Shown: positions 36,210 to 58,760 of the stretch, in pieces
How the letters are laid out: each line of letters begins with the position of its first letter
Position numbering within the stretch: position 1 is the first letter of the stretch
Assembly: GCA_964531285.1 (NCBI GenBank)
Contig: CAZHDI010000010.1
Coordinates: 1-59,702, forward strand
From: an uncultured Alphaproteobacteria bacterium
GTDB lineage: Bacteria > Pseudomonadota > Alphaproteobacteria > JAJFIK01
Reading direction: 5' to 3'
DNA length: 59,702 nucleotides
Position numbers and translations under genes: made by a program
The notes under the pieces: model-generated
Databases searched by the model: none
Told to the model about the DNA's origin: nothing
What the model saw: the letters and a program-made list of their open reading frames with translations, nothing else

Positions 36210-37700
36210 TTAATGCATTATGTTTGCGTCCGGCCACATGTTGGCAATCAGGACGGCAAGGTCCTGCACCACGTCGCCGTAGCTTGGATCTTCGGCCAGA
36301 TTATGGTGCTCGCCAGGGTCGGCGGCGAGATCGTACAACTCGCGGTCGACGGTCCCGGCGCCATGCCATTCCGTGTACCGATAAGGGCCTGACCGGACAC
36401 TGCGGCCATGAATCGATCCGTTGACGATTTCGCTGAAAGCAGCGGTCTCACCAGGCGCATCCGGGTCAGCAATCTGGCCGGCGAAGCTCGTGCCCTCCAA
36501 ATGCGCCGGTGCTGGCAAACCGGCCAGGTCAAGCAAAGTGGGATAAAGATCGACCAGTTCCACGAACGCGTCTGAGACCGCGCCATGCGGGCCATCGGGC
36601 AGCGCCACGATCAAGGGAACGCGGGTGGCTTCCTCGAACAGCATATGTTTGGACCACAGCCCGCCATGCTCGCCGAGCAGGAAGCCGTGATCGCTGAAGA
36701 ACACGACAATCGTGTTATCCGCCAATCCGGACGTCTCCAGAGCATTCAGAACCAGTCCCACCTGGGTATCGACGAGGCTCACGGTCGCATGATAGGCGGC
36801 GCGGGCCTGGCGGACCTGCTCCGGCGTGTGAGCGAGATAATCCGGTACCAGCCGATAGGCGGCGCGCGGCATGTCGGCGCGATCGTTTTCGACCGTCACG
36901 GGCAGGCCGACAGTGTCGAGCGGATGCTGATCGAAATAGGTCCGCGGTGCAACCCAGGGCAGGTGCGGCTTGTGAAACCCGGCGGCGATGAAGAACGGCT
37001 CGCCGGTGCCGCTCTCGCCATGGGCCGTCAGAAGATCGGCGACCCGGCGCGCGGTGCCGCCATCGGGCGTTTGTGCATCGGTCTGATCGGTGGCGCGCCA
37101 CACAAGGGGCAGTCCGGCCCGGCGGCCGAGCCGCCGAAGCATCTGATCCCGGGTCAATCCGTCCTCTGCGCCATCGACCCAGGTGTTGTCGCGCACCTGT
37201 GAACGATCCGTTCCCGGCATGTCATAAGGATTGACCGGTGTATTCTCGGAGATGTCCCAAGAGACCGAGTCGTTGAAACGGTCATGGGACACTTTGCCGA
37301 TGCGGGCCGTGCGGTAGCCGTGATCAGCGAAATGCTCCGGCAGCATACGGATGGCGCCAACAGCCTCGCGCGGCGGTGTGCCGCCCGTGTAGACCCGTGT
37401 GGTACCCGGCCGCGTGCCACTCAGAAAGGACGCGCGGGAGGGATTGCATAACGGGTACTGAACATAGGCCCGTTCGAAGCGGACGCCGCGCGCGGCCAGC
37501 GCATCCATATGGGGAGTGACGGCGGTGGGATGGCCATAACTGCCGAGCGCCGTGTTGAGATCGTCGACGATGATCATCAGGACATTGGGACGCGTCTCGG
37601 CCGCCGACGCGGACGGCTGCATGCCAAGCATCAGCGACATCGACAGGACCGCCAGACAGGCGCGGCGCGGGATCGCGGCGGTTGGACCGTGACAGGGCAT
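36210..37700 (-). CDS. secreted sulfatase (iduronate/choline-sulfatase-like)
   Basis: Signal peptide (possibly Tat, with RR). PNVLMIIVDDLN and C-N-P-S-R (PLCNPSRASFLSGTRPG). ATG at 37700 is preceded by AGGGAG. Confidence 0.9.
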   Translation of the reverse strand: MPCHGPTAAIPRRACLAVLSMSLMLGMQPSASAAETRPNVLMIIVDDLNTALGSYGHPTAVTPHMDALAARGVRFERAYVQYPLCNPSRASFLSGTRPGTTRVYTGGTPPREAVGAIRMLPEHFADHGYRTARIGKVSHDRFNDSVSWDISENTPVNPYDMPGTDRSQVRDNTWVDGAEDGLTRDQMLRRLGRRAGLPLVWRATDQTDAQTPDGGTARRVADLLTAHGESGTGEPFFIAAGFHKPHLPWVAPRTYFDQHPLDTVGLPVTVENDRADMPRAAYRLVPDYLAHTPEQVRQARAAYHATVSLVDTQVGLVLNALETSGLADNTIVVFFSDHGFLLGEHGGLWSKHMLFEEATRVPLIVALPDGPHGAVSDAFVELVDLYPTLLDLAGLPAPAHLEGTSFAGQIADPDAPGETAAFSEIVNGSIHGRSVRSGPYRYTEWHGAGTVDRELYDLAADPGEHHNLAEDPSYGDVVQDLAVLIANMWPDANIMH

Positions 37701-37876
37701 GGCGTTCTCCCTGAGCTGCGGCTCGATGGCCGGCACTCGTTTGCTTGTTTATGCCTGTCAGCTTAGCGGCGATGGAGCGCGCCGGTCCACACGTCCGTCG
37801 GACGGGTCGTCTTTGGCCCGCCGTGGTGCGCATGATACGGTCCCGCCGCGCGAGCGCACAGGCGGGGCTCTGATCC

Positions 37877-38743
37877 ATGACACGACAGTTTCATTTCATC
37901 TCAGGTTTGCCGCGATCCGGCTCGACATTGCTTGCAGCCCTGCTGCGCCAGAACCCGCGCTTTTACGCCGGCATGTCGGGGCCGGTCGCGAGCCTGTTCG
38001 AGGGTGTGGTCGGGCAGGTGTCGGCCGGGTCGGAACTGTCCAGCATGGTCAATGACGAGCAGCGCGCGCGCATCCTGAAGGGGCTGTTCGACAGTTATTA
38101 TGCCGACCGCCGGGAACCGGTAATTTTCGACACCAACCGCGCCTGGACTGCCAAGATGCCGGCGCTCATGTCGCTGTTTCCCCAGGCCAAGCTGATCTGC
38201 TGCGTGCGGGATATCGCCTGGATCATGGATTCAATGGAGCGCCAGTTCCGGGGCAATGCGTTCGAGAATACCCGGCTCTTCAACAATCCCGGGGAGCGGG
38301 CAACCGTTTACACCAGGGTTGAGGCGCTTGCGCATGCGAACCGGCTGGTCGGTTTTCCGTATCATGCCTTGCGGGAGGCCTGCTGGGGCGAGTTCGCCGA
38401 GCAACTGGTGATCGTCGATTACGATCTCTTGGTGGCGCGGCCTCGGGACGTACTGAGTCTCATCTACCAATTCCTCGGCGAAGAGCCGTTCGAGCATGAC
38501 TTTGACGCGGTCGATTATGATGCACCGGAATTCGACACCCAACTCGGCGTGTCGGGTCTGCATAAGGTCCATCCCAAGGTTGGGCCGCGGCCGCGCCAAA
38601 CCATTCTCCCGCCCGATCTCTTCGAGCGTTACGCGAATATGGCATTCTGGCGGGACCTGAAAAACTGTAAGGCCTACCGCATCGTCAGCCAGCCCTCCCC
38701 GGCGGCGGGGGAACCGCTCGCGCCGTCCCCATCCGTCCTGTAG
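37877..38743 (+). CDS. sulfotransferase family protein
   Basis: N-terminal PAPS-binding loop SGLPRSGSTLL. 288 aa. Divergent from the sulfatase operon. Confidence 0.8.
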   Translation: MTRQFHFISGLPRSGSTLLAALLRQNPRFYAGMSGPVASLFEGVVGQVSAGSELSSMVNDEQRARILKGLFDSYYADRREPVIFDTNRAWTAKMPALMSLFPQAKLICCVRDIAWIMDSMERQFRGNAFENTRLFNNPGERATVYTRVEALAHANRLVGFPYHALREACWGEFAEQLVIVDYDLLVARPRDVLSLIYQFLGEEPFEHDFDAVDYDAPEFDTQLGVSGLHKVHPKVGPRPRQTILPPDLFERYANMAFWRDLKNCKAYRIVSQPSPAAGEPLAPSPSVL

Positions 38744-39051: not shown

Positions 39052-39969
39052 ATGGAGAGTATGACTGCACTATCGAAACATTTGCTGGGCACCGTGGCGG
39101 GGGCGATCGCCCTCGGTGCGGCGGCGTCCTTGTCGGCGGCGGATGCCCGGCCGATGGATTATGACGCCTCCGGCAGTGGGTTCTTCGTCAATACCGACGG
39201 CGACGTGGTGACCAATCATCATGTGATCGACGGCTGTACGCGGGTGCGTCTGGCGGTCGGCACTCAGATCACGGGCGGGCGCGTGCTGGCGTCCTCTCCG
39301 GTCAACGATCTGGCCGTGGTGCGCGCCGACAATCCGTCCGCTCTGGTAAGCGCGAGCCGGACCCCAGAGACCCCGGCTCCAACTGCGGCACGGGTCCAGT
39401 CCGCGCCGCGTCCGTCCGGCGGTATGGTCGCGATTACGGGCGACAACGATTATCAGTATGGCAACAGTTATCGGGACGAGCGCCCGGGCGGGTCCTACGG
39501 GTCCGGCAGTACCGGAGCGGCTGCCGCTTCCGGCGGTTTGAAGCCTTATGCGGTCTTTCGGGCCGGTCGGCTCACCCAGGGTGAACCGGCGATTGCGCTT
39601 GGTTATCCGTATGCGCCGGCTTTATCGGACCAAGTGAAGATCACCTCCGGGCTGGTCTCAAGCACCGCTGGCTTGCTTAACGACACGACGCGGTTTCAGG
39701 TGTCGACCCCCATCAATCCGGGAAACAGCGGCGGTCCGATCTACGGCAAGGACGGTCTGGTGATCGGGGCATCGGTCTCGGGGCTGAACAACGAAGTCTT
39801 CTCGGCCACCCAGAACAATAATTTCGGGATCAAGACGACCACGATCCTCCAATTCCTGGGCGATCACGGCATCCGGTATCACACCGCAAATGGCGGCACG
39901 GACGTTTCGACCGAAGATCTGTTGAAAACGGCCGGACCGACCACGGTGCATATTTTGTGCAACCAGTGA
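39052..39969 (+). CDS. secreted trypsin-like (S1/S1C) serine protease with low-complexity insert
   Basis: Signal peptide. His in VVTNHHVIDG, Asp in NDLAVVRAD, Ser in NPGNSGGPIY. An alternative ATG exists at 39061. Confidence 0.8.
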   Translation: MESMTALSKHLLGTVAGAIALGAAASLSAADARPMDYDASGSGFFVNTDGDVVTNHHVIDGCTRVRLAVGTQITGGRVLASSPVNDLAVVRADNPSALVSASRTPETPAPTAARVQSAPRPSGGMVAITGDNDYQYGNSYRDERPGGSYGSGSTGAAAASGGLKPYAVFRAGRLTQGEPAIALGYPYAPALSDQVKITSGLVSSTAGLLNDTTRFQVSTPINPGNSGGPIYGKDGLVIGASVSGLNNEVFSATQNNNFGIKTTTILQFLGDHGIRYHTANGGTDVSTEDLLKTAGPTTVHILCNQ

Positions 39970-39998
39970 CCGGCCGGAGTGTGTGGGGAGATCGGGCC

Positions 39999-41396
39999 AT
40001 GATCATCCGGATCGTGATGAGTATCCTGCTCATGCTTGGCGGCGTGGCCGGCGCGGGAACCGCCTGGGCCGCCGACGGGCACGACCGGGCGGAGACGCTC
40101 GTGGTGTGGGGCCATTGGGGATATCTCAAGCGCGATGCCCAGGCCAGCCTGGCGGCCATCCTTGATGCTGGACGCGGCACGGCGCTTGGACGGGAACGCG
40201 ATGCGCTTGCTTCGTTTTCCGATGATTTGGTGAGCCGGCCAGCGGTCGGTCAGGTGCTGAACCAGTGGTCGAGCCATCCTCTGGTGCGCGGCGAGTCCGA
40301 TGTGGCCGCCGCTTATCAGCGGGCTCACGGGCGCCCCGCGCAACCGAAGCATCTGGAGAATCCGGAACGGTATTTCGACCGGGCCTATGCGCTCATTCTG
40401 ATTGGCGGGTTCGAGGATCACTCGCCACTCAAGACCTCGGTTGATATCCGCGGGCAGGTGGTCGATCTGCACCATGATTATTTCACCGCGACCGTGACCG
40501 CCGTTCTCTTCGACCTGAAATCCGATGAGATCGTCCTGTCGGCCACGGCAACGACCGTGCGGCCCGTCAAGGAGCAGGACCGGCCCGTCACCGGTCCGGT
40601 GCGGATTGCCGGATTCTTCCGGGAGGCCTATCAGGGCGCGGCCGACAAAGCGCTCACGCGTCTGACCCGGATTATGGGCCAGACCGCGCCGGATACCGTG
40701 GCGGACCGGTTCGACACCTATATGGTGACCAGCGTGGATATGGCGCCAGCGACGGGGCGCGAAGGCCTTATCAATCCGCGTGCGGTGTTCCAGTTCGATG
40801 GTTACAATGCGCAGGACGATGACTTTTGCCCGCGCCAGGCCCTGTGCCGGAACCGGGATCCAGCTTGCAAATCCTTCGTCAGCATGATGGCCAACGGTGT
40901 CACCAGCGCCTTGTCCCAGGCCGGTCATTTGACCATGCCGCCCTGGGGCGTTTCGGACTGGCGGGCGCGGAGCAATCACAAGATTTCCGTCTCGCTGGCC
41001 TTGCCGCAATTCGATTCGCCGATGGCCAAGCGGGCGCTTGAGTTCACCATCGATCCGCGAAAGGCCCGCTACAAGGTGCGCGCCCGCCTTGACGGCATCA
41101 CCCTGCGCCAGCCCGACAGCGGGTCGCGCTATGTCACCCACAACCGCTATTTTGCGCTTGTCAGCCATACGGCCACCAAGACGCGGATGTCGGCGGACGG
41201 CGCGGCCTGTATTCCGCGCGGTGACCCGGTGGAGGCCGCCGGCGCGGATTTCGTTGGTGTTTATGCGGACAATCCGCCGAGCCATCTGCCGCCGGTCACC
41301 GGCAAAATGGAACGGATGTTCTATTTTGCCGCCATCAACTGTTCCCTGCGCAAGCACGGCGATCCCAATGAGGTGTGCGATGCCCGGCAAAACTGA
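39999..41396 (+). CDS. secreted hypothetical protein
   Basis: Signal peptide (GAGTAWA), protein-like composition, RBS GGGGAG. The long antisense ORF is Arg-rich. Confidence 0.6.
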   Translation: MIIRIVMSILLMLGGVAGAGTAWAADGHDRAETLVVWGHWGYLKRDAQASLAAILDAGRGTALGRERDALASFSDDLVSRPAVGQVLNQWSSHPLVRGESDVAAAYQRAHGRPAQPKHLENPERYFDRAYALILIGGFEDHSPLKTSVDIRGQVVDLHHDYFTATVTAVLFDLKSDEIVLSATATTVRPVKEQDRPVTGPVRIAGFFREAYQGAADKALTRLTRIMGQTAPDTVADRFDTYMVTSVDMAPATGREGLINPRAVFQFDGYNAQDDDFCPRQALCRNRDPACKSFVSMMANGVTSALSQAGHLTMPPWGVSDWRARSNHKISVSLALPQFDSPMAKRALEFTIDPRKARYKVRARLDGITLRQPDSGSRYVTHNRYFALVSHTATKTRMSADGAACIPRGDPVEAAGADFVGVYADNPPSHLPPVTGKMERMFYFAAINCSLRKHGDPNEVCDARQN

Positions 41397-42327
41397 CCGT
41401 TTTATATCCCGTCTTGTCATCGGCGCGGGGCTTTTGATCGGTGCCCTGGTACCGGCGAGCGCTTTGGCGCACAAACATGAGATCATGGTGACGCTGCCGC
41501 CTTCGGGTGATGCTGCGGCTTGTGAGCGCGCCGCGGAGAAAGCGGCGGGGCGCGATGCGGTGGCACAGTCCGTCGCCTGGATCGACGATGCGTACACGAA
41601 CACTGCCAAGATGCAGGCCATGGCCGGGCGGTTCGTCGAGCGGACCATTGTCGAGACGGTCGATGCCTCGGCGGGCGCCTGCTCGGCAACCGTCCTGGTG
41701 CAGATCGACGGCGCGGAATTGGAAGATGCGATGGTCGATGCGGTCGATGTTGGCGGCCGCGACATCGGCATTCTGGTGCACTTTTCGCGGGACGGGGAAC
41801 CGGTGAGCCTGGGCGCCAGCGATGTCTATCTCCCGACCGTGGCGTTCCAGGATGCGCTGGCCCAGACGGGGTTCGAGACCATTCCTTTGGGCGAGATGCA
41901 CAAGGGCTTTCAGTCCATGCAGGATGCCAAGCGCTGTGCTGTCACCGGCGGTGACTTCAAGTTCTGCTACGAGGATCAGGGCCTTGTGGACAGCGTGCTC
42001 GATCTGTTGGACGGGCTGCGGCAGGCCTATCGGGATGCCGGCAACCCGAACATGACCTTCGATACCGCGCCGAAATTCATTCGGCTTTGGAAGGGCAATC
42101 TCGTGGCCGTCGGTACGCTGAGCACCGTCTTGTCGCCGGACGGTTATGCAATGACCGGCACCGCGGCGATCGAGTTTTACTCGGTCAAGGATTCCGGCGC
42201 GGCCGCCGCTCCCTTCGAAAAGCAGTTCAAGATCAATGTTCACGGCGCGCGCGCGGATGCCGAGCGGGCGGTGATCAACAAGCTTGGCGATGCGCTGGCC
42301 CGGCATGCCGCCCAAAATCTGCCCTGA
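41380..42327 (+). CDS. secreted hypothetical protein (two alpha/beta modules)
   Basis: Signal peptide (VPASALA). The start overlaps the previous gene by 17 nt. The track ORF (41038) N-terminus is out of phase with the upstream gene. Confidence 0.6.
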   Translation: MPGKTDRFISRLVIGAGLLIGALVPASALAHKHEIMVTLPPSGDAAACERAAEKAAGRDAVAQSVAWIDDAYTNTAKMQAMAGRFVERTIVETVDASAGACSATVLVQIDGAELEDAMVDAVDVGGRDIGILVHFSRDGEPVSLGASDVYLPTVAFQDALAQTGFETIPLGEMHKGFQSMQDAKRCAVTGGDFKFCYEDQGLVDSVLDLLDGLRQAYRDAGNPNMTFDTAPKFIRLWKGNLVAVGTLSTVLSPDGYAMTGTAAIEFYSVKDSGAAAAPFEKQFKINVHGARADAERAVINKLGDALARHAAQNLP

Positions 42328-42396
42328 TCCGGCAATGGGGCGAAAAGAAGGTCACGGATCTTCGATTTCTTTCACATCCAATCAACGGGGGATGAG

Positions 42397-43338
42397 ATGA
42401 CACAGTTCCGCACCACGACACTCGCCGGGCTCGCGACCGCTGCCGTCCTGGCGTTCGGCACGCTGACCGCCGCACCGGCGCCGGCCCAGGCCAACATGTT
42501 CGGCAAGCTGTTCGCCGGCATGGCCGATGGCATGGAAGAACACGGACCGTGCCTGGCGTTCGGCGACAAACAGATGGATTTTGGGAATTCCCATCAGCGT
42601 GATGACGCCATGGGTCTGCTCAAGGGCTTCGGCGAGCAGTTGGCCGAGGGGGTTGTGAATGACGTCATTCGCGGCTTGGCCGGCAAGTCGCCCTATTGCC
42701 GGACGCAGGACCCGGTCGAAAAGATGATGCTGATGGGCGTCGCGATGGACAATGCGACGTTCCATATCGGCCAGGGTCTGGTCGATGCCGAGTCGGCGCT
42801 GGGGCTGAAAAGCGATCTCCACCGCCAGGTCGCCTCGTTCGACCGGGCGCGTAATGGTGCGACGCTGGCCGAGCAGTTGGGGACGTCGCGGCAGCAGATC
42901 ACCAGTTCCCTGTCCGATGGTGCGGCCAAGGTGTCGCTGGAAATCAAGCGTCTCCAGGCAAGCGGGGGGCTGACCCCGGAAATCCTGACGCGCCTGGATG
43001 CGGCCGACGCCAAGATGCAACGCGGGATTTACTACTACATGATGGCCGGCGCCGGGGCCTATGTGTTCCAGGATCAGCTCAAGAACAATCAGCGGGAGCT
43101 GACCAATGCGCTGCGCAGCTCCGGCCAGTCGGATCTGACACAGGATTTCCTGGTCAGCGTGCCCCGCCGGGCCCTGGCCATCTTCGGCAATCTCGATGGC
43201 GTGGGCGATGTGTCCGGCTCCATCCGGGAAGGCCGGTCGAAAAAAGAATTGAAGAAGCTCAAAAAGGCGACCAAGGCCCAGCACAAGGTGAGCCGCAAGG
43301 AGGCTCAGGAGATCGCTGAACTGTTCGGTCAGGTCTGA
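42397..43338 (+). CDS. secreted hypothetical helical protein with Lys-rich C-terminus
   Basis: Signal peptide (APAPAQA). Helical composition. KKELKKLKKATKAQHK tail. Confidence 0.6.
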   Translation: MTQFRTTTLAGLATAAVLAFGTLTAAPAPAQANMFGKLFAGMADGMEEHGPCLAFGDKQMDFGNSHQRDDAMGLLKGFGEQLAEGVVNDVIRGLAGKSPYCRTQDPVEKMMLMGVAMDNATFHIGQGLVDAESALGLKSDLHRQVASFDRARNGATLAEQLGTSRQQITSSLSDGAAKVSLEIKRLQASGGLTPEILTRLDAADAKMQRGIYYYMMAGAGAYVFQDQLKNNQRELTNALRSSGQSDLTQDFLVSVPRRALAIFGNLDGVGDVSGSIREGRSKKELKKLKKATKAQHKVSRKEAQEIAELFGQV

Positions 43339-43398
43339 TGGACGGCGGGCGGGGCGCGCTCAGCGGTCCGCTCAATCCGTCCCGCTAACCGGCATCGC

Positions 43399-43443
43399 GC
43401 CGAAAAAATATCGAAAAAACAAGGCTTTGCAGATTTTTTCGGC
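43399..43443. promoter_or_regulatory. A/T-rich 11-bp perfect inverted repeat in an intergenic region
   Basis: GCCGAAAAAAT (43399-43409) and ATTTTTTCGGC (43433-43443) separated by 23 nt, about 100 nt upstream of the 43549 gene. Confidence 0.3.
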
Positions 43444-43548
43444 CGCGACGGGAAAAAAGATCCCTGATCTGTCCATAAGCCAGCATGCGAGTTCCAAAGC
43501 TGGTTTTCCGATCCCCGAGGGGGGACGCACTGAAGAAAGGGCGTAGCT

Positions 43549-44514
43549 ATGAAATCTCTTCTGACTGCGGCGGGTATCGCCGTTTCGGCCCTGGCCTGGG
43601 CCTTCACTGCCGCTCCGGCGGCTGCCTATAACGGCGAAGGCCTGTCGCTCGTCGTTCTCGCTGAAGATGCCGACCGTAATTCGGTGCGGGCCGACAGCGA
43701 TATCTTCCGCCGAGTCACCTCGGAGCTGCAACAGCAGTTCGCCGACTACGACTTCAATGTGATCGACGAGGAATTGTGGCTGGCGCGGATGCGCTGGACC
43801 CGCGACACCCGTCTGTCCAAGGGCGATCTGGCCGGACGCATCATGAATGCCTGTAATCAGGGCGACGACATCACCTGCCCGCGGGCGATGGCGGCCATCA
43901 AGATCCGGGCGTATGCGGAGGATCTGGGGTATGGCAGCCGGGCCCAGGTCCGGGTGATGGGCGATGTGCTCGATGCCGAGACCGGACAGTTCCTGGGCAG
44001 CTGGGAGCATCCGCTGATGGAATTCCCGGCGCCGCGCGGGTGCGACGGTGTGTGTATCGAGGAAATCATCGGCAAGAACGCCCGCGATATCGCGACTGTG
44101 CTGGGCGACACGCTCCGAGTGAAGCTTGCGGTCCTGGAGCGCGGCGAAGCGCGGCCGACGCATTCGGGCTACACCTCGGACGATGCTGGCCTCATCAACC
44201 GCTATCTCTTGACCTTCAAGAACTTCAGCCTGCGGGAATATCTGGCGATCGTCGATATGATGTCGTCGGACTTCCCCAAGGGGGTCGGGTTCGGCAAGCA
44301 GACCGGTGCGGTGCCGCTCATCAAGGTGAACTACAACACCCGGGCGAGCAATGAAGAGATCAACCGCTGGCTGAACATTCTCCTCCTGGAGATGGATTAC
44401 CCCGAGACCCACTTTAAGGTTCTCACCCAGCGCAATGGCCGTGAGATCCTGGTGGAAAAGGTCGTGGCCAACGCGCAAGGCCGGCGCAGCAACCCTAGCG
44501 ATCTGTATCACTGA
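43549..44514 (+). CDS. secreted hypothetical protein
   Basis: Signal peptide (TAAPAAA). Protein-like composition. Confidence 0.6.
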   Translation: MKSLLTAAGIAVSALAWAFTAAPAAAYNGEGLSLVVLAEDADRNSVRADSDIFRRVTSELQQQFADYDFNVIDEELWLARMRWTRDTRLSKGDLAGRIMNACNQGDDITCPRAMAAIKIRAYAEDLGYGSRAQVRVMGDVLDAETGQFLGSWEHPLMEFPAPRGCDGVCIEEIIGKNARDIATVLGDTLRVKLAVLERGEARPTHSGYTSDDAGLINRYLLTFKNFSLREYLAIVDMMSSDFPKGVGFGKQTGAVPLIKVNYNTRASNEEINRWLNILLLEMDYPETHFKVLTQRNGREILVEKVVANAQGRRSNPSDLYH

Positions 44515-44623
44515 GGTCTGCAGGGGAGGGGCCCGCCCGGCACCTCCCCCCACCGTCTTTATCGCTTCTGTCAGGTCTGCGTCAGGGCCGCCCGGTGCGG
44601 CTCAACAGGGAAGGAGTGCCCCC

Positions 44624-44953
44624 ATGGCTCCCATCATCAGACTGCTCCTCGTTGGTTTTGCCGCCGTTTCCATCTCGGCTTGCGCCACCGCTCACGGCGA
44701 CGTCCCCAGCGACATCAGCCAATACGATCAGCCGCTGGGCGATGGTTACGGGGAGACCCGCTTTGTGGTCTCGCGTGATTTCAAACTGCGGACCTCGCCG
44801 AATGTGAATGCCCGCGTGATGGACCGGATCCCGGAATCGACCCGGCTGACCGCACGGGTCACACAGGTGGACGATGTCTGGTACCACATCGACATCACCG
44901 GCGGTCCCGATGGCTATATGTTCGGCTTGCCGCTTCAACACGATCCGTATTGA
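44624..44953 (+). CDS. small lipoprotein with bacterial SH3-like domain
   Basis: Lipobox ISAC. C-terminal LRTSPNVNARVMDRIPESTRLTARVTQVDDVWYHI resembles SH3b. ATG at 44624 is preceded by AAGGAG. Confidence 0.65.
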   Translation: MAPIIRLLLVGFAAVSISACATAHGDVPSDISQYDQPLGDGYGETRFVVSRDFKLRTSPNVNARVMDRIPESTRLTARVTQVDDVWYHIDITGGPDGYMFGLPLQHDPY

Positions 44954-45036
44954 TGCGCAAGGCCGGATCTTAGGGCGTTGACAAACCGAGCGTTTTAGCA
45001 AGATAGCCGAAGAAGCACGAAAACCCATCAGTACCC

Positions 45037-45146
45037 GTCATGCCCGCGGACGCGGGCATCCAGCACCGCACGGCACTCACTCCAAGCGGAGACCTGAAAC
45101 CGTCGCCCCTGGATGCCGGATCTGCGCTGCGCTTGTCCGGCATGAC
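45037..45146. repeat. MITE/REP-like intergenic element made of two hairpin modules
   Basis: GTCATGCCCGCG-ga-CGCGGGCATCCAG (45037-45063) and CTGGATGCCGGA...TCCGGCATGAC (45109-45146). The ends are mutually inverted. Resembles the widespread GTCAT[TG]CCCGCG...GGGA/CATCCAG alphaproteobacterial repeat family. Confidence 0.6.
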
Positions 45147-45181
45147 GACCTCTGGAGAAAATGACGTTCTCATCAGTCTGA

Positions 45182-45207
45182 GACCCGGCCCAGCCGGGTC
45201 TTTTTTT
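45182..45207 (+). terminator. Rho-independent terminator
   Basis: GACCCGGC-cca-GCCGGGTC followed by TTTTTTT. Confidence 0.8.
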
Positions 45208-45291
45208 ATGGCGTTTGAGCCGTACCGGGAAAATTTGGGCCTGATCCGTCCATACGCCGTTACAGCGGATCCATTTGAAGGGAACAGGGCG

Positions 45292-46257
45292 ATGATGAAC
45301 GGGATTTGGGTGCGGTGCGGCGTTTTCGCCGTTGGCTTTGCCGGCCTGACACTGCTGGCGATGGCGACGGCCATGGCGTCGCACGGGCCGCGCGTCGAAG
45401 TGCAATACAAGAAAACGGATATCAAGGAGATGGTCCGGGCCGAGGCGATGCGTCAGGGCACCGTTCCGATCGCGCTCGCGCTCGGCGTGGCCCGGGTGGA
45501 ATCCAATTTCAATGCCAACGCGCTGAGCTCAGCCGGCGCCCGCGGGGTGATGCAGATCATGCCGCGGACCGCGCGCACCGAATTCGGGGTCGATCCGGAC
45601 GATCTTTGGGACCCGGCGTTGAATATCCGCCTGGGGATCAGATTTCTGTCCCGCCTCTATGCCATCTACGGCAACCGGTGGGACGCGGCCCTGTCGCATT
45701 ACAATGGCGGAACCCTGGACGGCGATCCCTTGACCGCGCCGCCCCATGGCTACACCCGGGGGTATGTCGCGTCCGTGCTCAAATGGGCCGACCGCTATGA
45801 GGCCGAAACCGGCGTCGCGCTCGCGGGCGGTGAGCGCTACAGCGATCCGGCGCCCGTGACCGCCACGTCCGATGCCGCGCTTGCCGCGCGGTTCCGGGCC
45901 CGGCTTGATGCGCAAAACGGCAGCGCGCCGCAGCCCGTGTCCGAAACACAGGCGCCGGAGCCCCACGTAATCGACGTCGGCTCCGCGGTGACCGCTGCCG
46001 GTGTTGCGCCGGTCTGGGCATACCGGTCGACTGAACCGCGGATGACCCTCAATGCGGGCCCGGCGGCGGCGCAGCCCGCCTATCGGACGGCGCAAGTGGC
46101 GCCGCAGAACGCACAGGATTGGCGCGCGGCGCAGCCGGTCTCTGCCGCCGCCGTCTATCCCAATGACCCGGGGTCGTCCTTCGATCGGGTCGTGCGCCGC
46201 GACATGGGTGAATTGCGCGCCCGTTTCCGGGGCGCTATTCGTAGGGATCGCAACTGA
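45292..46257 (+). CDS. lytic transglycosylase (SLT domain) with Ala/Pro-rich C-terminal tail
   Basis: Signal anchor. ALGVARVESNFNANALSSAGARGVMQIMPRTA with the catalytic Glu. The track ORF N-terminus (45040-45291) is a translation of the repeat element. Confidence 0.85.
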   Translation: MMNGIWVRCGVFAVGFAGLTLLAMATAMASHGPRVEVQYKKTDIKEMVRAEAMRQGTVPIALALGVARVESNFNANALSSAGARGVMQIMPRTARTEFGVDPDDLWDPALNIRLGIRFLSRLYAIYGNRWDAALSHYNGGTLDGDPLTAPPHGYTRGYVASVLKWADRYEAETGVALAGGERYSDPAPVTATSDAALAARFRARLDAQNGSAPQPVSETQAPEPHVIDVGSAVTAAGVAPVWAYRSTEPRMTLNAGPAAAQPAYRTAQVAPQNAQDWRAAQPVSAAAVYPNDPGSSFDRVVRRDMGELRARFRGAIRRDRN

Positions 46258-46305
46258 GTGGAGACGGCGCGGCGGCGCTTTGGGCTGCGCGGGGGGCAGC
46301 AGGAC

Positions 46306-48000
46306 ATGGCGGACACGAGACCCGGAGTGCGCAAGCTTGTCGTGCTGTCCTTTCCGAAGGGCGAATTGCTCGATGCCCTGAAGCATCTGGAGATCGCCAG
46401 GACCCATCCCGGCGATGCGCCGCTGGTCTTCAAGCCCAAGACCATCCTGCGGATCACCCAGTTGCTGGTCGGCGGACCGGTGGATTTCGGGGTCTTGCGT
46501 CTGTGCCACTTTCTTGTGGCGGTGGCGGCCACCGATGAGGATCTGGGCAGCTTCCCCATGATGTTCCGGGGATCGCCGCGCGATGCGCGGGCGATCTTCA
46601 CCCGCGAGGCCCTGCAGCCCGTGATGGGTGCCCGCGTCAGTGCCTCCAAAGCGGGCATTGAACTGTCTTATCCAGACGGCGATTTTACCATCGATTACAG
46701 CGCCGTGCCGGAACTGCTGGCTCTGGCCGAGGTGCTGGCCAACGGCCTCGGCTATCACACGATCGGCGGGCTGATCGACGCGGTGCATGAGAGCCCGGTG
46801 TCGATGCAGCGGGTGAAAGACATCGCTCAATCGGTGATGCCGGAGTTCCGCACCTGGATCGAGCGCAATATGGCGGTGTCGCGCCAGAGCCGTCAAAAGT
46901 TCAAGAAGATGATCGATTTTCTGGAACGGTTCCGAGGTGCCGATTTCAGTACGGACGATATCGACGATGAAGCCGTTCTTGAGCTGTGGAAAGAGCATGC
47001 CGGCTCGGACGACGATTTCAAATTGTTCGGTACCGCGCTCGACAGTCTTCTGTTTCTCATCCGGCAGGCCCATGAGGGCCAGCGGCGCCTTGAGGAAGAT
47101 CGAATGGGCGGCCTCGATTTCGCTTACGAGGATGGCCGCTACACGATTGATCCGGGCTATGATCCTGAAGCCGACGATTTCGATACGTTCGCATCGTGGT
47201 TTGTCTTTATCAACGGGTCCGATGACGACGATGCGGATTTCGTCGCGCCGTTGAAAGATGCTGGCAATATTCTGTTCGCCAAGCAATGGGCCTGGCTGGA
47301 CCCTTATTGGCCCGCGCCGGACGGTCCGCATCTGATGCGCTCTCGCCTGCGGGCCGACGCCTTCGGAGCGCTTCAGCGGCGAATCGTTCAGGCACTGCGC
47401 CGCAATGCCAGCCGTACAGAGATCTGCGGGCTGATCGGCGTGGCGCCGGAGGAAACATATGATGTGATCGCCGGCCGGGCGGAAAAGGCGCATTCGGATA
47501 TTTGGACCGCGGCCCACGCGATCCTCCATGTCCTGATCGCGAGCGAACATGAAAATGCGCTGCATCTTCTGTACACGCTGCGTCAGCGGGATGTCGATCT
47601 GCGCAGTTTTGTCCAGACACTCGTTCTCGAAGATCTGGTCGACACCGAGGCCCTGGCCCGGGACGGGCTCGACGCGCTGGCCGATGCCTTTTTCGAGGCC
47701 CTGCGGCGCGGAGATATCACGCCCGATGACGTAGCGACGGTCGTGCGTCAGTCGGAGGGCTTCTGGCGTAAGCTTAAAGATCGGGCTGGTTTCAAGCCCG
47801 CCGAGATTGAAGACCCCGTCCGTGTGGAAAGCTTTGCCGAGGTGACGGGCGATTTGACGAAGGCCGTGACCCGGATCGGATCCGTGCGCACCATGATCGA
47901 TCGCGCGTGCCCGGCGGGGGAGCGGGAAAATCTGTTCAAATCCGACTATCAGAGTTTTGCGGGGCTGTTCCTGCGTCTCTATGTGGACGGTATTGAGTAG
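46306..48000 (+). CDS. hypothetical cytoplasmic protein (~565 aa, acidic, no recognisable motifs)
   Basis: Protein-like composition versus an Arg-rich 678-aa antisense ORF. An alternative GTG start at 46258 abuts the SLT stop. No Walker A motif seen. Confidence 0.65.
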   Translation: MADTRPGVRKLVVLSFPKGELLDALKHLEIARTHPGDAPLVFKPKTILRITQLLVGGPVDFGVLRLCHFLVAVAATDEDLGSFPMMFRGSPRDARAIFTREALQPVMGARVSASKAGIELSYPDGDFTIDYSAVPELLALAEVLANGLGYHTIGGLIDAVHESPVSMQRVKDIAQSVMPEFRTWIERNMAVSRQSRQKFKKMIDFLERFRGADFSTDDIDDEAVLELWKEHAGSDDDFKLFGTALDSLLFLIRQAHEGQRRLEEDRMGGLDFAYEDGRYTIDPGYDPEADDFDTFASWFVFINGSDDDDADFVAPLKDAGNILFAKQWAWLDPYWPAPDGPHLMRSRLRADAFGALQRRIVQALRRNASRTEICGLIGVAPEETYDVIAGRAEKAHSDIWTAAHAILHVLIASEHENALHLLYTLRQRDVDLRSFVQTLVLEDLVDTEALARDGLDALADAFFEALRRGDITPDDVATVVRQSEGFWRKLKDRAGFKPAEIEDPVRVESFAEVTGDLTKAVTRIGSVRTMIDRACPAGERENLFKSDYQSFAGLFLRLYVDGIE

Positions 48001-48015
48001 ACTGGAGGCATTGAC

Positions 48016-48576
48016 ATGGCGGTTACGTGGAGCAAGTTGCCCCCCCGCACGAGAACCGAGATCGAACAGGCATTCGGTGTTATGGACACCGCGAAGACCC
48101 TACTGGACGAGGTGAGCGCGATGGATGCGCCGTCGCGTCCGGGTATTCGCGATCTCTATCACTTTATGCTCCGCCCGCAGAGCGATGTGTCGGGCCGGGT
48201 CCAGCGTGCGCTGCGCGACGATCCGCGGGTGCAGCGGGATTTCGACAGCCTTCTGGAGCGCAATGGCGCCTTTGCGTTTCCGCAAGCCGCGGCGGCCAGT
48301 TCGACCCAGATCGAGGAACGCACCGACGTGGAAGGGTTGGCGCGGCTTCGGCTCCTGCCGTCGGATTCTCTGCCCGACGAGGCCTATCTGCTGATCGACC
48401 TCGATCCGTCGAACGGGCTGGAGCCGAAATGCCTCTATGTGAGCGGGACCGATGTCGGCTACATTGCGATACCGCTTGCGCCGCCGGAAAATGATACGAT
48501 CAGCATGATCCTGTCGTCGTCCAGCGACGAGGCGCGCGCGCTGTGGGACCCCAAGGCGAAGGTCCATCTGAAATAG
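48016..48576 (+). CDS. hypothetical protein (186 aa)
   Basis: RBS GGAGG. 15 nt after the upstream stop. Protein-like composition. Confidence 0.6.
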   Translation: MAVTWSKLPPRTRTEIEQAFGVMDTAKTLLDEVSAMDAPSRPGIRDLYHFMLRPQSDVSGRVQRALRDDPRVQRDFDSLLERNGAFAFPQAAAASSTQIEERTDVEGLARLRLLPSDSLPDEAYLLIDLDPSNGLEPKCLYVSGTDVGYIAIPLAPPENDTISMILSSSSDEARALWDPKAKVHLK

Positions 48577-48588
48577 ACGGTCGAGGCC

Positions 48589-49977
48589 ATGACGGATATT
48601 GCGGTCTATATTCCGACAACGAACGGGGCGAGCCAGGTCTTGAGTCTGACCAAGATCGGGCTCGATGGGTCGGACCGTGATTATCCGTCAATGATCGGCG
48701 TCAATCACACGACCCGGTCGATTTCCGGTTTACGGATTCGCTATGACGAGTTCGTCCGCGAGCCGACGGGCGTTATCGAGCGGCATACCGATCACCGGTC
48801 GTACCGGGTCGATGTGTCGGGCGATATCAGCCATGGCGACAGCTGGCAGCTCGGCTTGTTCATTGCTCATGCCCTGGCCGAAAGCGGTGCGGTCGGTCTT
48901 CAAGGCGATCGCGGGGAAAGTCTGACTCTCAAAGGCGGTCTTCACACCCGGTCCCAGAAGGCATCGGAAACCGCGCAGCAGGGCGAGGCCGGGATCGTCG
49001 TCTGGGCGACCGGGATCGTAACCTCCGGCCTTCATGTGCGCAGCGTCGGAGAAATCCTCTGTAAACTCGATCAGTCAGCGGATTTGTTTGAGGTAGCGCG
49101 TAAAGCAGGCGCCCGTGTTGTGTTTGCTCTGCCGGCGGAAAATCGTACGCCGGAGCTAGAAGCTTATTTCAAGACCCTGTCCGGTCATTTCTCAGAGTGC
49201 GATGTGGTTTTTGTCGATGACGTTGTTTTTGGCGAGCCTGCCGGTGGTGCGCAAACCGCGGTGACGGCGATGCCGTCCGCGGCATCTCCGGGCGCGCGCC
49301 CCGCCGCTGGTACGTCAGGTTTACCGATCAAAGCTGGCGCCATGGTGGCTGCAGGCGTTGCCGGGGCCGCGGTTCTGGCTTATGCGCTTTCGGGGCCGGA
49401 TGAAACAACGATGCCGGCCGCTGACGATCAGGCGGCGGCGGCATTCACGTCATCTGACCCTGTGCCGGAGCCCGCCGGCGGTTGGTCCCCGGCTCAAGCC
49501 GGCCGTTTGATCACCCATGTGGATGTGGATTTGCGGTTTCGCGATGATGTCTCCTTAAGCCTGCCGTGGGCCGGGGCGCCGTCGGCCGTCCTGCCGAGGG
49601 ATGCCGGGCGGATCGTGACCCATCGGGCGGGTGTCGATGTTGTGCTGGAAAATCCGAGTACGGAGCGCCTGGATGTTGCCTATGCGATCATTGACCAGCA
49701 ATCGGGGCTTTTGGCGTCCGGCCATGGTCAAGTTCAGCCGGTTGGCCGCTGGTCCGTGCCTTTGGAGGGCGACATAGGCGATCTTGAGGAGCGGGCTGTT
49801 TGGCTCTTTGCGGCGCCTCACCTGGCCGTGGATTTTTCCGAGGTCTTGGGAGGCGGTCTGTCGGACGGGACGGTTCGCGATATCCGGCAGTGGGCGGAGG
49901 ATCGCAATGTGGCGAGCTTCCGACTCGGCCGCAACACGCTGGCTGGCGATGTTCCGGCGACATCGTATACACCTTGA
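48589..49977 (+). CDS. bitopic membrane protein with N-terminal Lon-protease-like (S16-like) domain
   Basis: VDVSGDISHGDSWQLGLFIAHALA and VVWATGIVTSGLHVRSVGEILCKL...ARKAGARVVFALPAEN parallel the Lon GPSAG...MTGEI..G.V..IGG..EK...A...G...V.IP..N pattern. One TM helix (AGAMVAAGVAGAAVLAYAL). Confidence 0.55.
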   Translation: MTDIAVYIPTTNGASQVLSLTKIGLDGSDRDYPSMIGVNHTTRSISGLRIRYDEFVREPTGVIERHTDHRSYRVDVSGDISHGDSWQLGLFIAHALAESGAVGLQGDRGESLTLKGGLHTRSQKASETAQQGEAGIVVWATGIVTSGLHVRSVGEILCKLDQSADLFEVARKAGARVVFALPAENRTPELEAYFKTLSGHFSECDVVFVDDVVFGEPAGGAQTAVTAMPSAASPGARPAAGTSGLPIKAGAMVAAGVAGAAVLAYALSGPDETTMPAADDQAAAAFTSSDPVPEPAGGWSPAQAGRLITHVDVDLRFRDDVSLSLPWAGAPSAVLPRDAGRIVTHRAGVDVVLENPSTERLDVAYAIIDQQSGLLASGHGQVQPVGRWSVPLEGDIGDLEERAVWLFAAPHLAVDFSEVLGGGLSDGTVRDIRQWAEDRNVASFRLGRNTLAGDVPATSYTP

Positions 49978-49992
49978 CGGGGAGGACATGAG

Positions 49993-50535
49993 ATGAGCCT
50001 GCATCGGATCACATTACGCGCTAGGGGCGGCACTCTTGCCGCGGCCGTCGCGGTGCTGGTTGTTGCCGCGCCGGCGGGTGCAACAACAAGCGAGCGCTAT
50101 GACCGGGAGGGTTACATCTCGGCGTTGACGCCCATTACCGGCGACGAGACGCCGGCGAAGGTCGATCTCTATCTGACCTTCGCGTTCGGGTCTGCCGCAC
50201 TCACCGGCGACGCCCGGAACCAGCTTGACGTGCTGGCCGAGGCGATCCTGTCGGACGGCTTGCAGAGGGCGCGCTTCGGTCTCTACGGGCATACCGATGC
50301 CGTCGGTTCGGCGGCTTATAACGAGGATCTCTCAGCCCGCCGCGCCCGCGCCGTGCGGGATTATCTTGTTGGCCAAGGGGTCACGCCAGACCGGCTCGAT
50401 AGCCGTGGTTTCGGGGAAACCCGGCCGAAAAATCTGCTGGACCCTGAAGCCGCCGAGAACCGCCGGGTCGAGGTTGTCAATCTGACACCGCCGCCGGCGC
50501 CCGCCGGGTCTATGACGCCCATTACCGGCGATTGA
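49993..50535 (+). CDS. OmpA/MotB-family peptidoglycan-binding protein
   Basis: Signal peptide. FAFGSAALT ... GHTDAVGSAAYNEDLSARRARAV ... NRRVEV. Confidence 0.9.
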   Translation: MSLHRITLRARGGTLAAAVAVLVVAAPAGATTSERYDREGYISALTPITGDETPAKVDLYLTFAFGSAALTGDARNQLDVLAEAILSDGLQRARFGLYGHTDAVGSAAYNEDLSARRARAVRDYLVGQGVTPDRLDSRGFGETRPKNLLDPEAAENRRVEVVNLTPPPAPAGSMTPITGD

Positions 50536-50716: not shown

Positions 50717-51169
50717 ATGACCAAGCTGAATGTCAATGGCCAGGCCATGGAGGTCGAGGCTGACGAAAACACGCCGTTGCTCTGGGTCCTCAGGGAACAG
50801 TTGGGCCTCACCGGAACGAAATATGGCTGCGGCATCGCACAATGCGGTGCCTGTACCGTTCATGTCGACGGAATGGCCGTCCGCGCCTGTGTTTATCCGC
50901 TGGCCGCGGTCGCCGAGGGCAGCCAAATCACGACTATCGAAGGATTGTCCGAAGACGGCAGCCATCCGGTACAGGAAGCGTGGGCGGAACTCGACATTCC
51001 ACAATGCGGCTATTGCCAGCCCGGTATGATCATGGCGGTGTCCGCTCTGCTTGCGGAAAATCCGAATGCGACCGATGACGATATCGACGCGCAGATTACC
51101 AATATCTGCCGCTGCGGGACCCTGGCTCGGGTCCGCAAGGGCATCCATTTGGCAAAAACCAAGATTTGA
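50717..51169 (+). CDS. (2Fe-2S)-binding small subunit of a xanthine-oxidase-family molybdo-hydroxylase (IorA-like)
   Basis: [16 protein letters not shown] and CGYCQPG cluster motifs. 150 aa. Confidence 0.9.
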
Positions 51170-51183
51170 GGCGGAGAGAACCT

Positions 51184-53747: not shown

Positions 53748-53748
53748 C

Positions 53749-55466: not shown

Positions 55467-55470
55467 GTTC

Positions 55471-55941: not shown

Positions 55942-55950
55942 GGGACGGTC

Positions 55951-57062: not shown

Positions 57063-57081
57063 CTTCTCTGCCTTCAGCGCA

Positions 57082-58554: not shown

Positions 58555-58760
58555 TGATGGTCCTCCCTCGGTTTATACGCTGTTCCGCTTTAGTCTCAAG
58601 CATAGTCGAGTGCGGCCATGAGCAGAAGGGGGCCGTGACAGGGCATGGGGTGCGTTCTTACCATCCGCTGCATGGGATCATGCTATACTCATGCTACAAG
58701 CTCAGTCGATGAGATCAGAAGGTCTATGGCCGCGAGGCTGGTGGAAGCGCGAGGGTACCG

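What the first reader, a model, noticed from the sequence alone, without database searches (positions are those of the whole stretch)
39052..44953. Cluster of six exported proteins (trypsin-like protease, four unknowns, SH3 lipoprotein) with no assignable function
All six products have signal peptides or lipoboxes and all are on the same strand. Junctions include a 17-nt overlap (41380/41396). The unit ends at a strong terminator (45182-45207). The proteins at 41380 and 43549, and part of the one at 39999, contain segments that read like small alpha/beta periplasmic scaffold modules of the CsgG/LpoB/FlgT-TolB-N type. Examples are GILVHFSRDGEPV...AFQDALAQTGFETIPLG, GLSLVVLAEDADRNS...ELQQQFADYDFNVIDEE and TATVTAVLFDLKSDEIVLSA. 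That assignment is only an impression. Together with the neighbouring SLT and OmpA genes, this could encode a periplasmic or envelope-associated assembly.
Basis: inference. Interest (0 to 1): 0.55.

Follow-up and report, generated by a model that had tools for sequence, protein, structure and literature searches.

The report
Conserved eleven-gene cell-envelope system
The six exported proteins are real and form the first half of a conserved eleven-gene set, seen in a few dozen environmental bacteria, that probably builds a protease-carrying scaffold in the cell-wall space linked to a membrane-anchored Lon-like protease; no described system matches it.

Summary
Six same-strand genes (39052-44953) encode Sec-type exported proteins. 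They show the 17-nt overlap and end at a strong terminator (45180-45209). They are not the whole unit. With the next five genes (SLT, three unknowns, OmpA; to 50535) they form an 11-gene block. That block recurs gene for gene, at 26-63% identity and with the terminator in the same place, in another genome with different flanks.

More distant subtypes, in about 30 loci including a Methylobacterium plasmid, keep a core:
- a homologue of the 43549 protein;
- usually an SLT;
- a three-gene module;
- where the contig reaches far enough, an OmpA-type protein and a periplasmic protease (trypsin-type, subtilisin or caspase).

A moderate-confidence AlphaFold model of the 43549 protein matches FlgT, CsgG, PelC and GNA1162. 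The membrane protein of the three-gene module has a cytoplasmic domain whose profile hits Lon proteolytic domains, with an invariant Ser and Lys. A short motif (PITGD-like) occurs only in this system's proteases and OmpA proteins.

My best reading is a peptidoglycan-anchored periplasmic scaffold with docked protease, coupled to a transmembrane Lon-like module. Its function is untested. It is no member of the curli, Pel, flagellar, Tol or listed defence systems.

The parts
39052..39969 (+). Exported trypsin-like (HtrA-type, no PDZ) serine protease. It has an 80-aa low-complexity insert that carries the motif GGMVAITGD (residues 123-131).
   Evidence: Pfam Trypsin_2 E 2e-18. NCBIfam HtrA/DegS-type partial hits. 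Catalytic motifs TNHH(56/57)V, D86 and GNS226GGP. 45% identical orthologue at the same position in L038. The motif is the conserved island of the insert.
39999..41396 (+). Exported 465-aa protein with 6 Cys. Its family is specific to this subtype; fold unknown.
   Evidence: No Pfam, NCBIfam, PADLOC or PDB hit. Orthologues in L038 (37%) and L041 (26%) at the same position. The word-indexed search missed them.
41380..42327 (+). Exported 315-aa protein whose start overlaps the previous gene by 17 nt. C48 and C101 are invariant. Fold untested.
   Evidence: Exhaustive phmmer found three real homologues among 1.84e9 representatives (alignment). All three sit in related clusters.
42397..43338 (+). 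Exported 313-aa protein with a Lys-rich C-terminus; it reads as mainly helical (my impression, not computed). A lipoprotein in some relatives.
   Evidence: No family hit. Orthologues follow the 315-aa gene in L038, L041 and L042.
43549..44514 (+). Exported 321-aa protein. The N-domain (about 33-197) has a CsgG/FlgT/PelC-type fold; the C-domain (217-306) is beta-alpha-beta-beta-alpha-beta-beta. It is the one component of the six that is conserved across subtypes.
   Evidence: AF2 model pLDDT 65. Foldseek PDB matches: FlgT 8z5n/3w1e, CsgG 4uv2, GNA1162, PelC, E 1e-5 to 1e-3. A CsgG-annotated phage protein ranks 3 in BFVD. Homologues next to the three-gene module in many loci.
44624..44953 (+). 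SH3-domain lipoprotein (109 aa, lipobox ISA-C20).
   Evidence: Pfam SH3_3 E 1.2e-4, below the curated cut-off. The orthologue in L024 passes the cut-off. Same position in L038 and L024.
45180..45209 (+). Intrinsic terminator separating the six-gene operon from the SLT operon.
   Evidence: An equivalent hairpin plus T-run lies at the same junction in L038.
45292..46257 (+). Membrane-anchored or exported lytic transglycosylase (SLT domain).
   Evidence: Pfam SLT E 1.7e-22. An SLT gene lies directly upstream of the 580-family gene in 13 metagenome loci (L013-L022, L024-L026), and in L038 and the marine relatives.
46258..48000 (+). Cytoplasmic 580-aa protein, first gene of the three-gene module. 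No known domain.
   Evidence: No Pfam or PDB hit, even with a 16-sequence profile. Family found in 23 metagenome loci.
48016..48576 (+). Cytoplasmic 186-aa protein, second gene of the module. It has an invariant AAAS-like motif (A93 A94 ... R102).
   Evidence: Alignment of 16 members. No PDB or Pfam hit. Always lies between the 580 and 462 families.
48589..49977 (+). Single-pass membrane protein. The cytoplasmic N-domain (1-190) is Lon (S16)-like with invariant S85 and K159. The TM segment is about 245-269. The periplasmic C-domain is variable.
   Evidence: Invariant columns in 16 members. The profile hits 23 Lon proteolytic-domain entries in PDB sequences, E 0.004-0.7. hhalign places S85 and K159 on the Lon catalytic Ser and Lys. 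The C-terminus is replaced by FGE-sulfatase in P0020. The AF2 model failed.
49993..50535 (+). OmpA-family peptidoglycan-binding protein. It carries the motif TPITGD twice: before the OmpA domain and at the extreme C-terminus.
   Evidence: Pfam OmpA E 3.6e-21. Last gene of the block in L038 and in the marine relatives as well. Motif and 19-nt repeat.

Best explanation
The six genes are the exported arm of one two-operon, 11-gene envelope system (39052-50535).

Shown:
- The block is conserved as a unit.
- Across distant subtypes the recurring partners are the CsgG/FlgT-fold protein (43549), a lytic transglycosylase, an OmpA-type peptidoglycan binder, a periplasmic protease, and a translationally coupled three-gene module.
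- The membrane protein of that module carries a Lon-like domain with an invariant Ser and Lys.
- The protease and the OmpA protein share a system-specific PITGD-like peptide.

Inferred mechanism:
1. After Sec export, the 43549 protein oligomerises into a periplasmic ring or scaffold, as its fold relatives do.
2. The SLT enzyme opens the peptidoglycan for it.
3. The OmpA protein and the SH3 lipoprotein fix it to the wall and outer membrane.
4. The protease and the OmpA protein dock through the PITGD-like peptides.
5. The 465-, 315- and 313-aa proteins are subtype-specific partners or substrates.
6. The periplasmic domain of the 462-aa protein contacts this assembly. It relays its state, perhaps after cleavage by the periplasmic protease, to the cytoplasmic Lon-like domain.
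7. That domain processes the 186-aa and/or 580-aa partner.

This would be a proteolytic relay across the inner membrane, comparable in logic to DegS-RseA.
For: Unit and synteny:
- L038 has all 11 genes in the same order (26-63% identity), different flanks and the same internal terminator.
- L041 and L042 keep the 465-315-313 string (315-313-321 in L042) with module genes nearby.
- L024 has 321-like, SH3 lipoprotein, SLT and module in the window's order.
- The marine Rhodospirillales loci and the Methylobacterium plasmid keep the 321 family, protease, OmpA and module.
- 23 metagenome loci were found with the 580-family profile.

Scaffold fold:
-.
- A protein that passes the Pfam CsgG cut-off, fused to PG_binding_1, sits just upstream of the TM-protein and SLT genes in L025, where no 321-family gene is found.

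Lon-like domain.

Coupling of the module: 1-4 nt overlaps in relatives.

Motif: it was found in none of the other six-frame ORFs among the 4318 scanned in the window and all loci. It is the conserved island in otherwise divergent linkers.

Protease swapping: trypsin-type, subtilisin S8 or caspase appears at equivalent places.
Against: - No oligomer prediction and no experiment exists.
- The 43549 model is only moderate (pTM 0.48; TM-scores 0.2-0.56).
- 43549 has no lipobox in this genome.
- The Lon link rests on marginal E-values (0.004 and weaker), and only the Lys half aligns in HMMER.
- The roles of the 580- and 186-aa proteins are unknown.
- The terminator shows that the two halves can be transcribed separately.
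- In L010 and L011 unrelated genes follow the module. Their upstream sides are cut off, so the module may also occur without the exported arm.
- The larger relatives have seven more genes that this window lacks.
Confidence: 0.45

Rival explanations
1. A curli- or Pel-like outer-membrane export route. The CsgG-fold protein forms a channel or funnel, and the subtype-specific Sec-exported proteins (465, 315, 313 aa) are cargo or surface parts. The protease matures them. The three-gene module only regulates.
For: - Fold matches to CsgG and PelC.
- A protein passing the Pfam CsgG cut-off sits beside the SLT and module genes in L025.
- Several 321-family members have a lipobox (L027, L031, L024, P0016).
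- No ATPase is present, as expected for a Sec plus diffusion-type pathway.
- Exported partners diverge fast and differ between subtypes.
Against: - The window protein and several relatives lack the lipid anchor that CsgG and PelC use.
- No homologue of CsgA/B/E/F or PelA-G was found in the window or loci.
- No outer-membrane barrel partner was recognised.
- FlgT, the best match, is a scaffold and not a channel.
Confidence: 0.2
2. An envelope-resident conflict system (anti-phage, suicide or inter-bacterial). The periplasmic protease and the SLT enzyme are lytic effectors held in check on a scaffold. The transmembrane Lon-like module senses attack and releases them.
For: - Rare, patchy distribution with different neighbours in each lineage.
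- The Methylobacterium copy lies on a mobilizable plasmid beside RelE/HigA pairs, an integrase and IS256.
- The accessory domains (caspase, trypsin, FGE-sulfatase, vWA, Sel1, OmpA) are those listed for membrane-proximal conflict systems in PMC7159879.
- The periplasmic domain of the 462 family is variable.
Against: - No PADLOC model matches except weak hits to the trypsin domain.
- No NTPase, nuclease or other usual effector was found.
- Size is 11-20 genes.
- In the marine clade the cluster keeps one chromosomal position next to hyp genes in the loci examined.
- No viral contig carries the 580 family.
Confidence: 0.2
3. No system at all: unrelated exported proteins that happen to be adjacent, next to ordinary housekeeping SLT and OmpA genes.
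For: - A terminator splits the block.
- Most components have no annotated family.
Against: - Whole-block synteny at 26-63% identity with different flanks.
- Recurrence of the core in about 30 loci.
- The shared motif.
Confidence: 0.03

Closest known systems
FlgT of the Vibrio flagellar H-ring (PDB 3w1e, 8z5n)
   Same: Best structural match of the 43549 protein (E 1.5e-5 and 5.6e-5). From my own knowledge, FlgT is a soluble periplasmic ring or scaffold protein that works with an OmpA-like protein (MotY) and a Sel1-repeat protein (MotX).
   Different: No flagellar gene was found in the parts of the window or the loci that were scanned. Sequence identity is 14-15% and TM-score only about 0.3. No FlgO/FlgP was detected.
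CsgG (curli, type VIII secretion) and PelC (Pel polysaccharide export)
   Same: Same alpha/beta fold class. Both form rings (from my own knowledge). A Pfam-positive CsgG-domain protein sits beside the SLT and module genes in one related locus.
   Different: The window protein does not reach any Pfam CsgG score, has no lipobox and has no curli or Pel partner genes.
Lon (S16) proteolytic domain, e.g. Archaeoglobus LonB 1z0c/1z0e, Meiothermus Lon 4ypl, LonC 4fwd
   Same: The 462-family N-domain profile hits these entries. The invariant Ser and Lys align with the catalytic dyad. The Ser-to-Lys spacing is similar.
   Different: No AAA+ module. The domain is N-terminal and tethered to a single TM helix with a periplasmic tail. 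E-values are marginal. Pfam Lon_C gives E 0.04 for one member of 16.
DegS-RseA-RseP envelope-stress relay (works-like comparison only)
   Same: A periplasmic HtrA-type protease plus a single-pass membrane protein and cytoplasmic proteolysis. C-terminal peptides act as signals.
   Different: No homology to RseA, RseP or sigma-E was found. The window protease lacks a PDZ domain. The relay here is inferred, not shown.
Membrane-proximal conflict systems of Kaur et al. 2020 (PMC7159879)
   Same: Shared accessory domains: caspase, trypsin, FGE-sulfatase, vWA, Sel1 and OmpA behind a TM segment.
   Different: Those systems are built around MoxR-vWA, STAND or GTPase cores. None of these is present here.

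Membership tests
Curli / type VIII secretion (CsgG) | Sequence membership in the Pfam CsgG family PF03783 | tested here: not met
   No hit for the 43549 protein or any of 14 family members. Only the unrelated L025 protein passes.
Curli / type VIII secretion (CsgG) | CsgG-type alpha/beta fold | tested here: met
   Foldseek matches to 4uv2, 4q79, 6l7a; E 2e-5 to 1e-3, probability 0.9-1.0. The model is only moderate and TM-scores are low, 0.2-0.34.
Curli / type VIII secretion (CsgG) | N-terminal lipobox for outer-membrane anchoring | tested here: not met
   The window signal peptide ends AAPAAA-YNG with no Cys. Some relatives do have one.
Curli / type VIII secretion (CsgG) | Partner genes csgA/B/E/F | tested here: not met
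   No such Pfam hit among the window genes and locus proteins scanned.
Flagellar H-ring (FlgT) | Fold similarity to FlgT | tested here: met
   8z5n E 1.5e-5 and 3w1e E 5.6e-5; rmsd 5.6-5.8 over about 185 columns.
Flagellar H-ring (FlgT) | Genomic association with flagellar genes (flgO/P, motX/Y) | tested here: not met
   None among the window genes scanned or the related clusters.
Lon protease family S16 | Ser-Lys catalytic dyad in the proteolytic domain | tested here: met
   S85 and K159 are invariant in 16 members.
Lon protease family S16 | Significant profile match to the Lon_C domain | tested here: inconclusive
   23 coherent PDB Lon hits, but E 0.004-0.7 and covering only the Lys half. 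Pfam Lon_C E 0.042 in 1 of 16 members. The AF2 model was too poor to use.
Lon protease family S16 | AAA+ ATPase module | tested here: not met
   No ATPase domain in the 462-aa protein or its neighbours.
HtrA/DegP family | Trypsin-fold domain with His-Asp-Ser | tested here: met
   Trypsin_2 E 2e-18; H56/57, D86, S226.
HtrA/DegP family | C-terminal PDZ domain(s) | tested here: not met
   No PDZ hit. All NCBIfam equivalog scores are far below their cut-offs.
Known anti-phage defence systems (PADLOC 2.0) | Match of components to a system model | tested here: not met
   Only generic protease-domain hits.
Tol-Pal / TonB-ExbBD (considered for the larger relatives) | Homology of the 4-TM and 1-TM proteins to ExbB/TolQ and ExbD/TolR | tested here: not met
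   My by-eye impression was not supported: no Pfam hit, hhalign probability below 1%. These genes are absent from the window anyway.

The most novel reading that the evidence does not exclude
This is a new class of trans-envelope apparatus. A peptidoglycan-embedded ring of a CsgG/FlgT-fold protein carries interchangeable periplasmic proteases (trypsin-type, subtilisin or caspase). The proteases dock through a dedicated PITGD-type peptide. A membrane-tethered, ATPase-less Lon-like Ser-Lys protease and two unknown cytoplasmic partners read out or control the assembly. That would be a proteolytic signalling or killing device with no described counterpart.
Probability: 0.3. Interest if true: 0.8.

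Novelty: new variant of a known kind. Interest (0 to 1): 0.6.

Why it matters
- **New families in one system.** Seven families without any Pfam model (465, 315, 313, 321, 580, 186 and 462 aa) are tied together. Two of them now have testable fold or active-site assignments.
- **New use of a known fold.** A CsgG/FlgT-fold protein would be placed in a context that is neither curli, Pel nor flagellar.
- **An unusual protease.** A Lon-type proteolytic domain would be working without an ATPase at the inner membrane.
- **A precise experimental handle.** The short docking or cleavage motif can be mutated directly.
- **A cultured host.** Methylobacterium aquaticum MA-22A carries a variant on plasmid pMaq22A_2p, so the system can be studied genetically.

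Tried and rejected
**Family and sequence searches**
- Pfam, NCBIfam, PADLOC and PDB-sequence searches of the unknowns gave nothing.
- The word-indexed search for the 465-aa protein found only itself. This was a false negative, because a 37% orthologue exists.
- tblastn of the unknowns against plasmids and phages found only the Methylobacterium hit.
- The viral-contig scan was empty.
- The first metagenome scan, with a 315-family pattern, was empty.
- Rfam and tRNA scans of the window were empty.
- Five literature searches found no description of the cluster.

**Structure**
- The AF2 model of the 462-aa protein failed (pLDDT 34) and was not used.

**Profile comparisons**
- Attempts to link the 465-, 315- and 313-aa proteins to the positional analogues of other subtypes, or to the 321 family, were all non-significant.
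- The 148-aa lipoprotein of the relatives is not detectably SH3.

**Impressions I dropped**
- I read the relatives' 166/142/363-aa proteins as ExbB/ExbD/TonB-like and the 227-aa lipoprotein as PelC-like. Pfam and hhalign do not support this, so it is rejected as evidence.
- I read an LPP20/FlgT-N-like start in the 315-aa protein. This remains untested.


Full report
**1. The observation**

The six + strand ORFs exist as described.
- Five have an N-terminal hydrophobic segment followed by an AXA-type site.
- The sixth is best started at ATG 44624. This gives a 109-aa lipoprotein (lipobox ISA-C20) with a weak SH3_3 match.
- Even cysteine counts fit periplasmic disulfides.
- Codon-position GC identifies the + frames as the coding ones, not the long antisense ORFs.
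- The 17-nt overlap 41380/41396 is exact.
- The terminator is real: a 10-bp stem with 7 G-C pairs at 45180-45202, followed by a T-run.
- The terminator lies inside the over-extended 405-aa 'SLT' ORF, so the SLT gene most likely starts at 45292.
- No signal-peptide predictor was available. Export is therefore read from the sequence.

**2. Annotation attempts**

Only three of the six genes get any family hit. The protease matches Trypsin_2 with intact H56/57, D86 and S226 but no PDZ. The lipoprotein matches SH3_3 weakly. The 321-aa protein gets one chance-level Pfam hit (Spike_JR1, E 0.046). Downstream genes are SLT (45292-46257), three proteins without any hit (580, 186 and 462 aa) and an OmpA-family protein (49993-50535). 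The unknowns match nothing in Pfam, NCBIfam or PADLOC beyond chance-level scores. The PDB-sequence search with each of the four unknown exported proteins gave nothing below E 0.17. The 580- and 186-aa proteins have no hydrophobic segment. The 462-aa protein has one, at about 245-269.

**3. The unit is eleven genes and is conserved**

An exhaustive HMMER search with the 315-aa protein found three real homologues among 1.84 billion representatives. Their genomic contexts are decisive.
- **L038** (NCBI GCA_964449455.1) carries all eleven genes in the window's order. Identities are: protease 45%, 465-aa 37%, 315-aa 34%, 313-aa 35%, 321-aa 55%, SH3 36%, SLT 63%, 580-aa 26%, 186-aa 36%, 462-aa 37% and OmpA 55%. 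Its flanks are unrelated to the window's (glnB/glnA/recO on one side, a cation-efflux gene and a GTPase gene on the other). It has an intrinsic terminator at the same SH3/SLT junction.
- **L041** has a subtilisin, then homologues of the 465-, 315- and 313-aa genes. A 321-family gene and 462/186-family genes lie on the other strand.
- **L042** has the order 315-313-321.

The block is bounded by the protease gene and the OmpA gene.

**4. Wider family**

The 321-aa protein has only seven homologous clusters among 5.8 billion proteins.
- They lie in marine Alphaproteobacteria/Rhodospirillales assemblies, in a cluster of about 20 genes. The cluster contains a Trypsin_2 protease, an SLT, homologues of the 580/186/462 genes and a terminal OmpA protein.
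- A tblastn hit led to Methylobacterium aquaticum plasmid pMaq22A_2p. There a secreted caspase-Sel1-PG_binding protein, the three-gene module, a serine protease, an OmpA protein and a 321-family protein are co-linear. They sit beside toxin-antitoxin pairs, an integrase and IS256.
- A profile of the 580 family retrieved 23 metagenome loci.
- In those loci the module is directly preceded by an SLT gene in 13 cases and has one within 3 kb in three more. A 321-family gene is found in most loci with enough flank.
- L024 has the order 321-like, SH3 lipoprotein, SLT, module, as in the window.
- Other subtypes carry a caspase-SH3-FGE-sulfatase protein, a DUF4384 protein or a vWA-OmpA protein. In L025 a protein that passes the Pfam CsgG cut-off, fused to PG_binding_1, sits just upstream of the TM-protein and SLT genes, and no 321-family gene is found there.
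- In L010 and L011 unrelated genes follow the module, so it may also travel separately.
- The 465/315/313 families are confined to the window subtype. Profile comparisons to the positional analogues of other subtypes are not significant.

**5. Fold of the 43549 protein**

An AlphaFold2 model built from eight sequences has mean pLDDT 65 and pTM 0.48. It shows an alpha/beta N-domain (about 33-197) and a beta-alpha-beta-beta-alpha-beta-beta C-domain.
- Foldseek against the PDB returns FlgT (8z5n, 3w1e), CsgG (4uv2 and others), GNA1162, XCC0632, HpaA, CT253 and PelC. E-values are 1.5e-5 to about 3e-3 with probabilities near 1.
- TM-scores are low: 0.2-0.3 on the query and up to 0.56 on small targets.
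- BFVD gives a CsgG-annotated phage protein at rank 3.

No member of the family reaches a Pfam CsgG score.

The same claim for the 315- and 465-aa proteins could not be tested.

**6. The Lon-like domain**

The N-terminal 190 residues of the 462 family align well in 16 diverse members. T10, G83, S85, W86, G142 and K159 are invariant.
- The profile hits 23 distinct Lon proteolytic-domain sequences in the PDB (LonB, bacterial Lon, LonC, LONP1). E-values run from 0.004 to 0.7. The match covers the TG...K...P..N half.
The pairwise E-value is 0.0026 and the probability 12%.
- Pfam Lon_C appears for one member only.
- The AF2 model was unusable.

I rate the Lon-like assignment at about 0.7. There is no AAA+ module. 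The periplasmic tail varies: Pro-rich plus a beta-rich domain in the marine clade, FGE-sulfatase in P0020, and a unique sequence in the window.

The 186 family has an invariant AAAS-like motif. It is a candidate substrate site. That is inference only.

**7. A system-specific peptide motif**

The pattern [LM]x[PAS]ITG[DE] occurs as follows.
- **Window OmpA protein:** just before the OmpA domain, and again as the last residues (SMTPITGD-stop). The two copies are encoded by an exact 19-nt repeat.
- **Window protease:** in the insert (GGMVAITGD).
- **L038:** the same three places.
- **L041:** three times in the subtilisin, and at the C-terminus of an 83-aa protein.
- **Marine clade:** LMPITGEE in the OmpA protein, and the C-terminal variants WQPIN and WVPITQ on the protease and a lipoprotein.

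It occurs in none of the other 4318 six-frame ORFs of the window and loci. Because it sits at extreme C-termini, I favour a docking peptide over a cleavage site. Either way, it links the first operon (protease) to the last gene of the second (OmpA).

**8. Interpretation**

Shown:
- a conserved two-operon block;
- a core shared across subtypes;
- a CsgG/FlgT-type fold;
- an SLT, a peptidoglycan binder and an intact serine protease;
- a probable Lon-like Ser-Lys domain on a single-pass membrane protein;
- a shared motif.

Inferred:
- ring formation;
- peptidoglycan insertion with the help of the SLT;
- docking through the motif;
- a proteolytic relay to the cytoplasm.

Rival readings are a curli/Pel-like export route and a conflict system with lytic effectors. 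The data do not separate them. The system fails the membership tests for curli, Pel, the flagellar H-ring, Tol/TonB, canonical Lon, HtrA and PADLOC-listed defence systems. Five literature searches found no description of it. The domain repertoire overlaps that of the membrane-proximal conflict systems in PMC7159879, but their NTPase cores are absent.

**9. Verdict**

- It is an undescribed, rare envelope system built partly from known folds.
- Function and mechanism remain hypotheses.
- A cultured carrier exists for experiments.

Noticed in passing
window 20472-28578: A GT2 glycosyltransferase gene is followed by four tandem paralogues of DUF3131 (E 1e-102 to 1e-146). A glycogen phosphorylase gene and a response-regulator/SpoIIE phosphatase gene lie upstream.
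   Followed up: no
window 50717-58557: A 2Fe-2S and molybdopterin oxidoreductase pair comes first. It is followed by flavocytochrome c sulfide dehydrogenase, cytochrome c, SoxY and SoxA genes. This suggests a sulfur-oxidising host.
   Followed up: no
window 50126-50144 and 50513-50531: An exact 19-nt direct repeat inside the OmpA gene. Both copies encode TPITGD.
   Followed up: partly
window 43339-43548: A 211-nt spacer between the 313-aa and 321-aa genes. It has a GC-rich hairpin, then an A6/T6 hairpin (43399-43443). Folding z-score is -2.3. It may be an internal regulatory or promoter region.
   Followed up: partly
window 45040-45291: The 405-aa 'SLT' ORF runs through the terminator and over short inverted repeats (for example ATGCCCGCGGACGCGGGCAT at 45041-45060). 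The first roughly 84 codons are probably not translated.
   Followed up: partly
window 36210-38743; L012 1-883; P0020; L027 7695-9725: A sulfatase (and, in the window, a sulfotransferase) lies next to the cluster in both the window and the Methylobacterium plasmid. FGE-sulfatase domains occur on some system proteins. This may be coincidence.
   Followed up: no
L005 and L008 (GCA_016776725.1, contigs JADHSV010000032 and JADHSV010000020): The same metagenome-assembled genome carries the marine-type cluster on two contigs. This is either a duplication or mixed strains in the bin.
   Followed up: no
L038 12139-12424: A run of N in the assembly removes the signal-peptide part of the 321-aa orthologue. 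The database gene call there is therefore truncated.
   Followed up: yes
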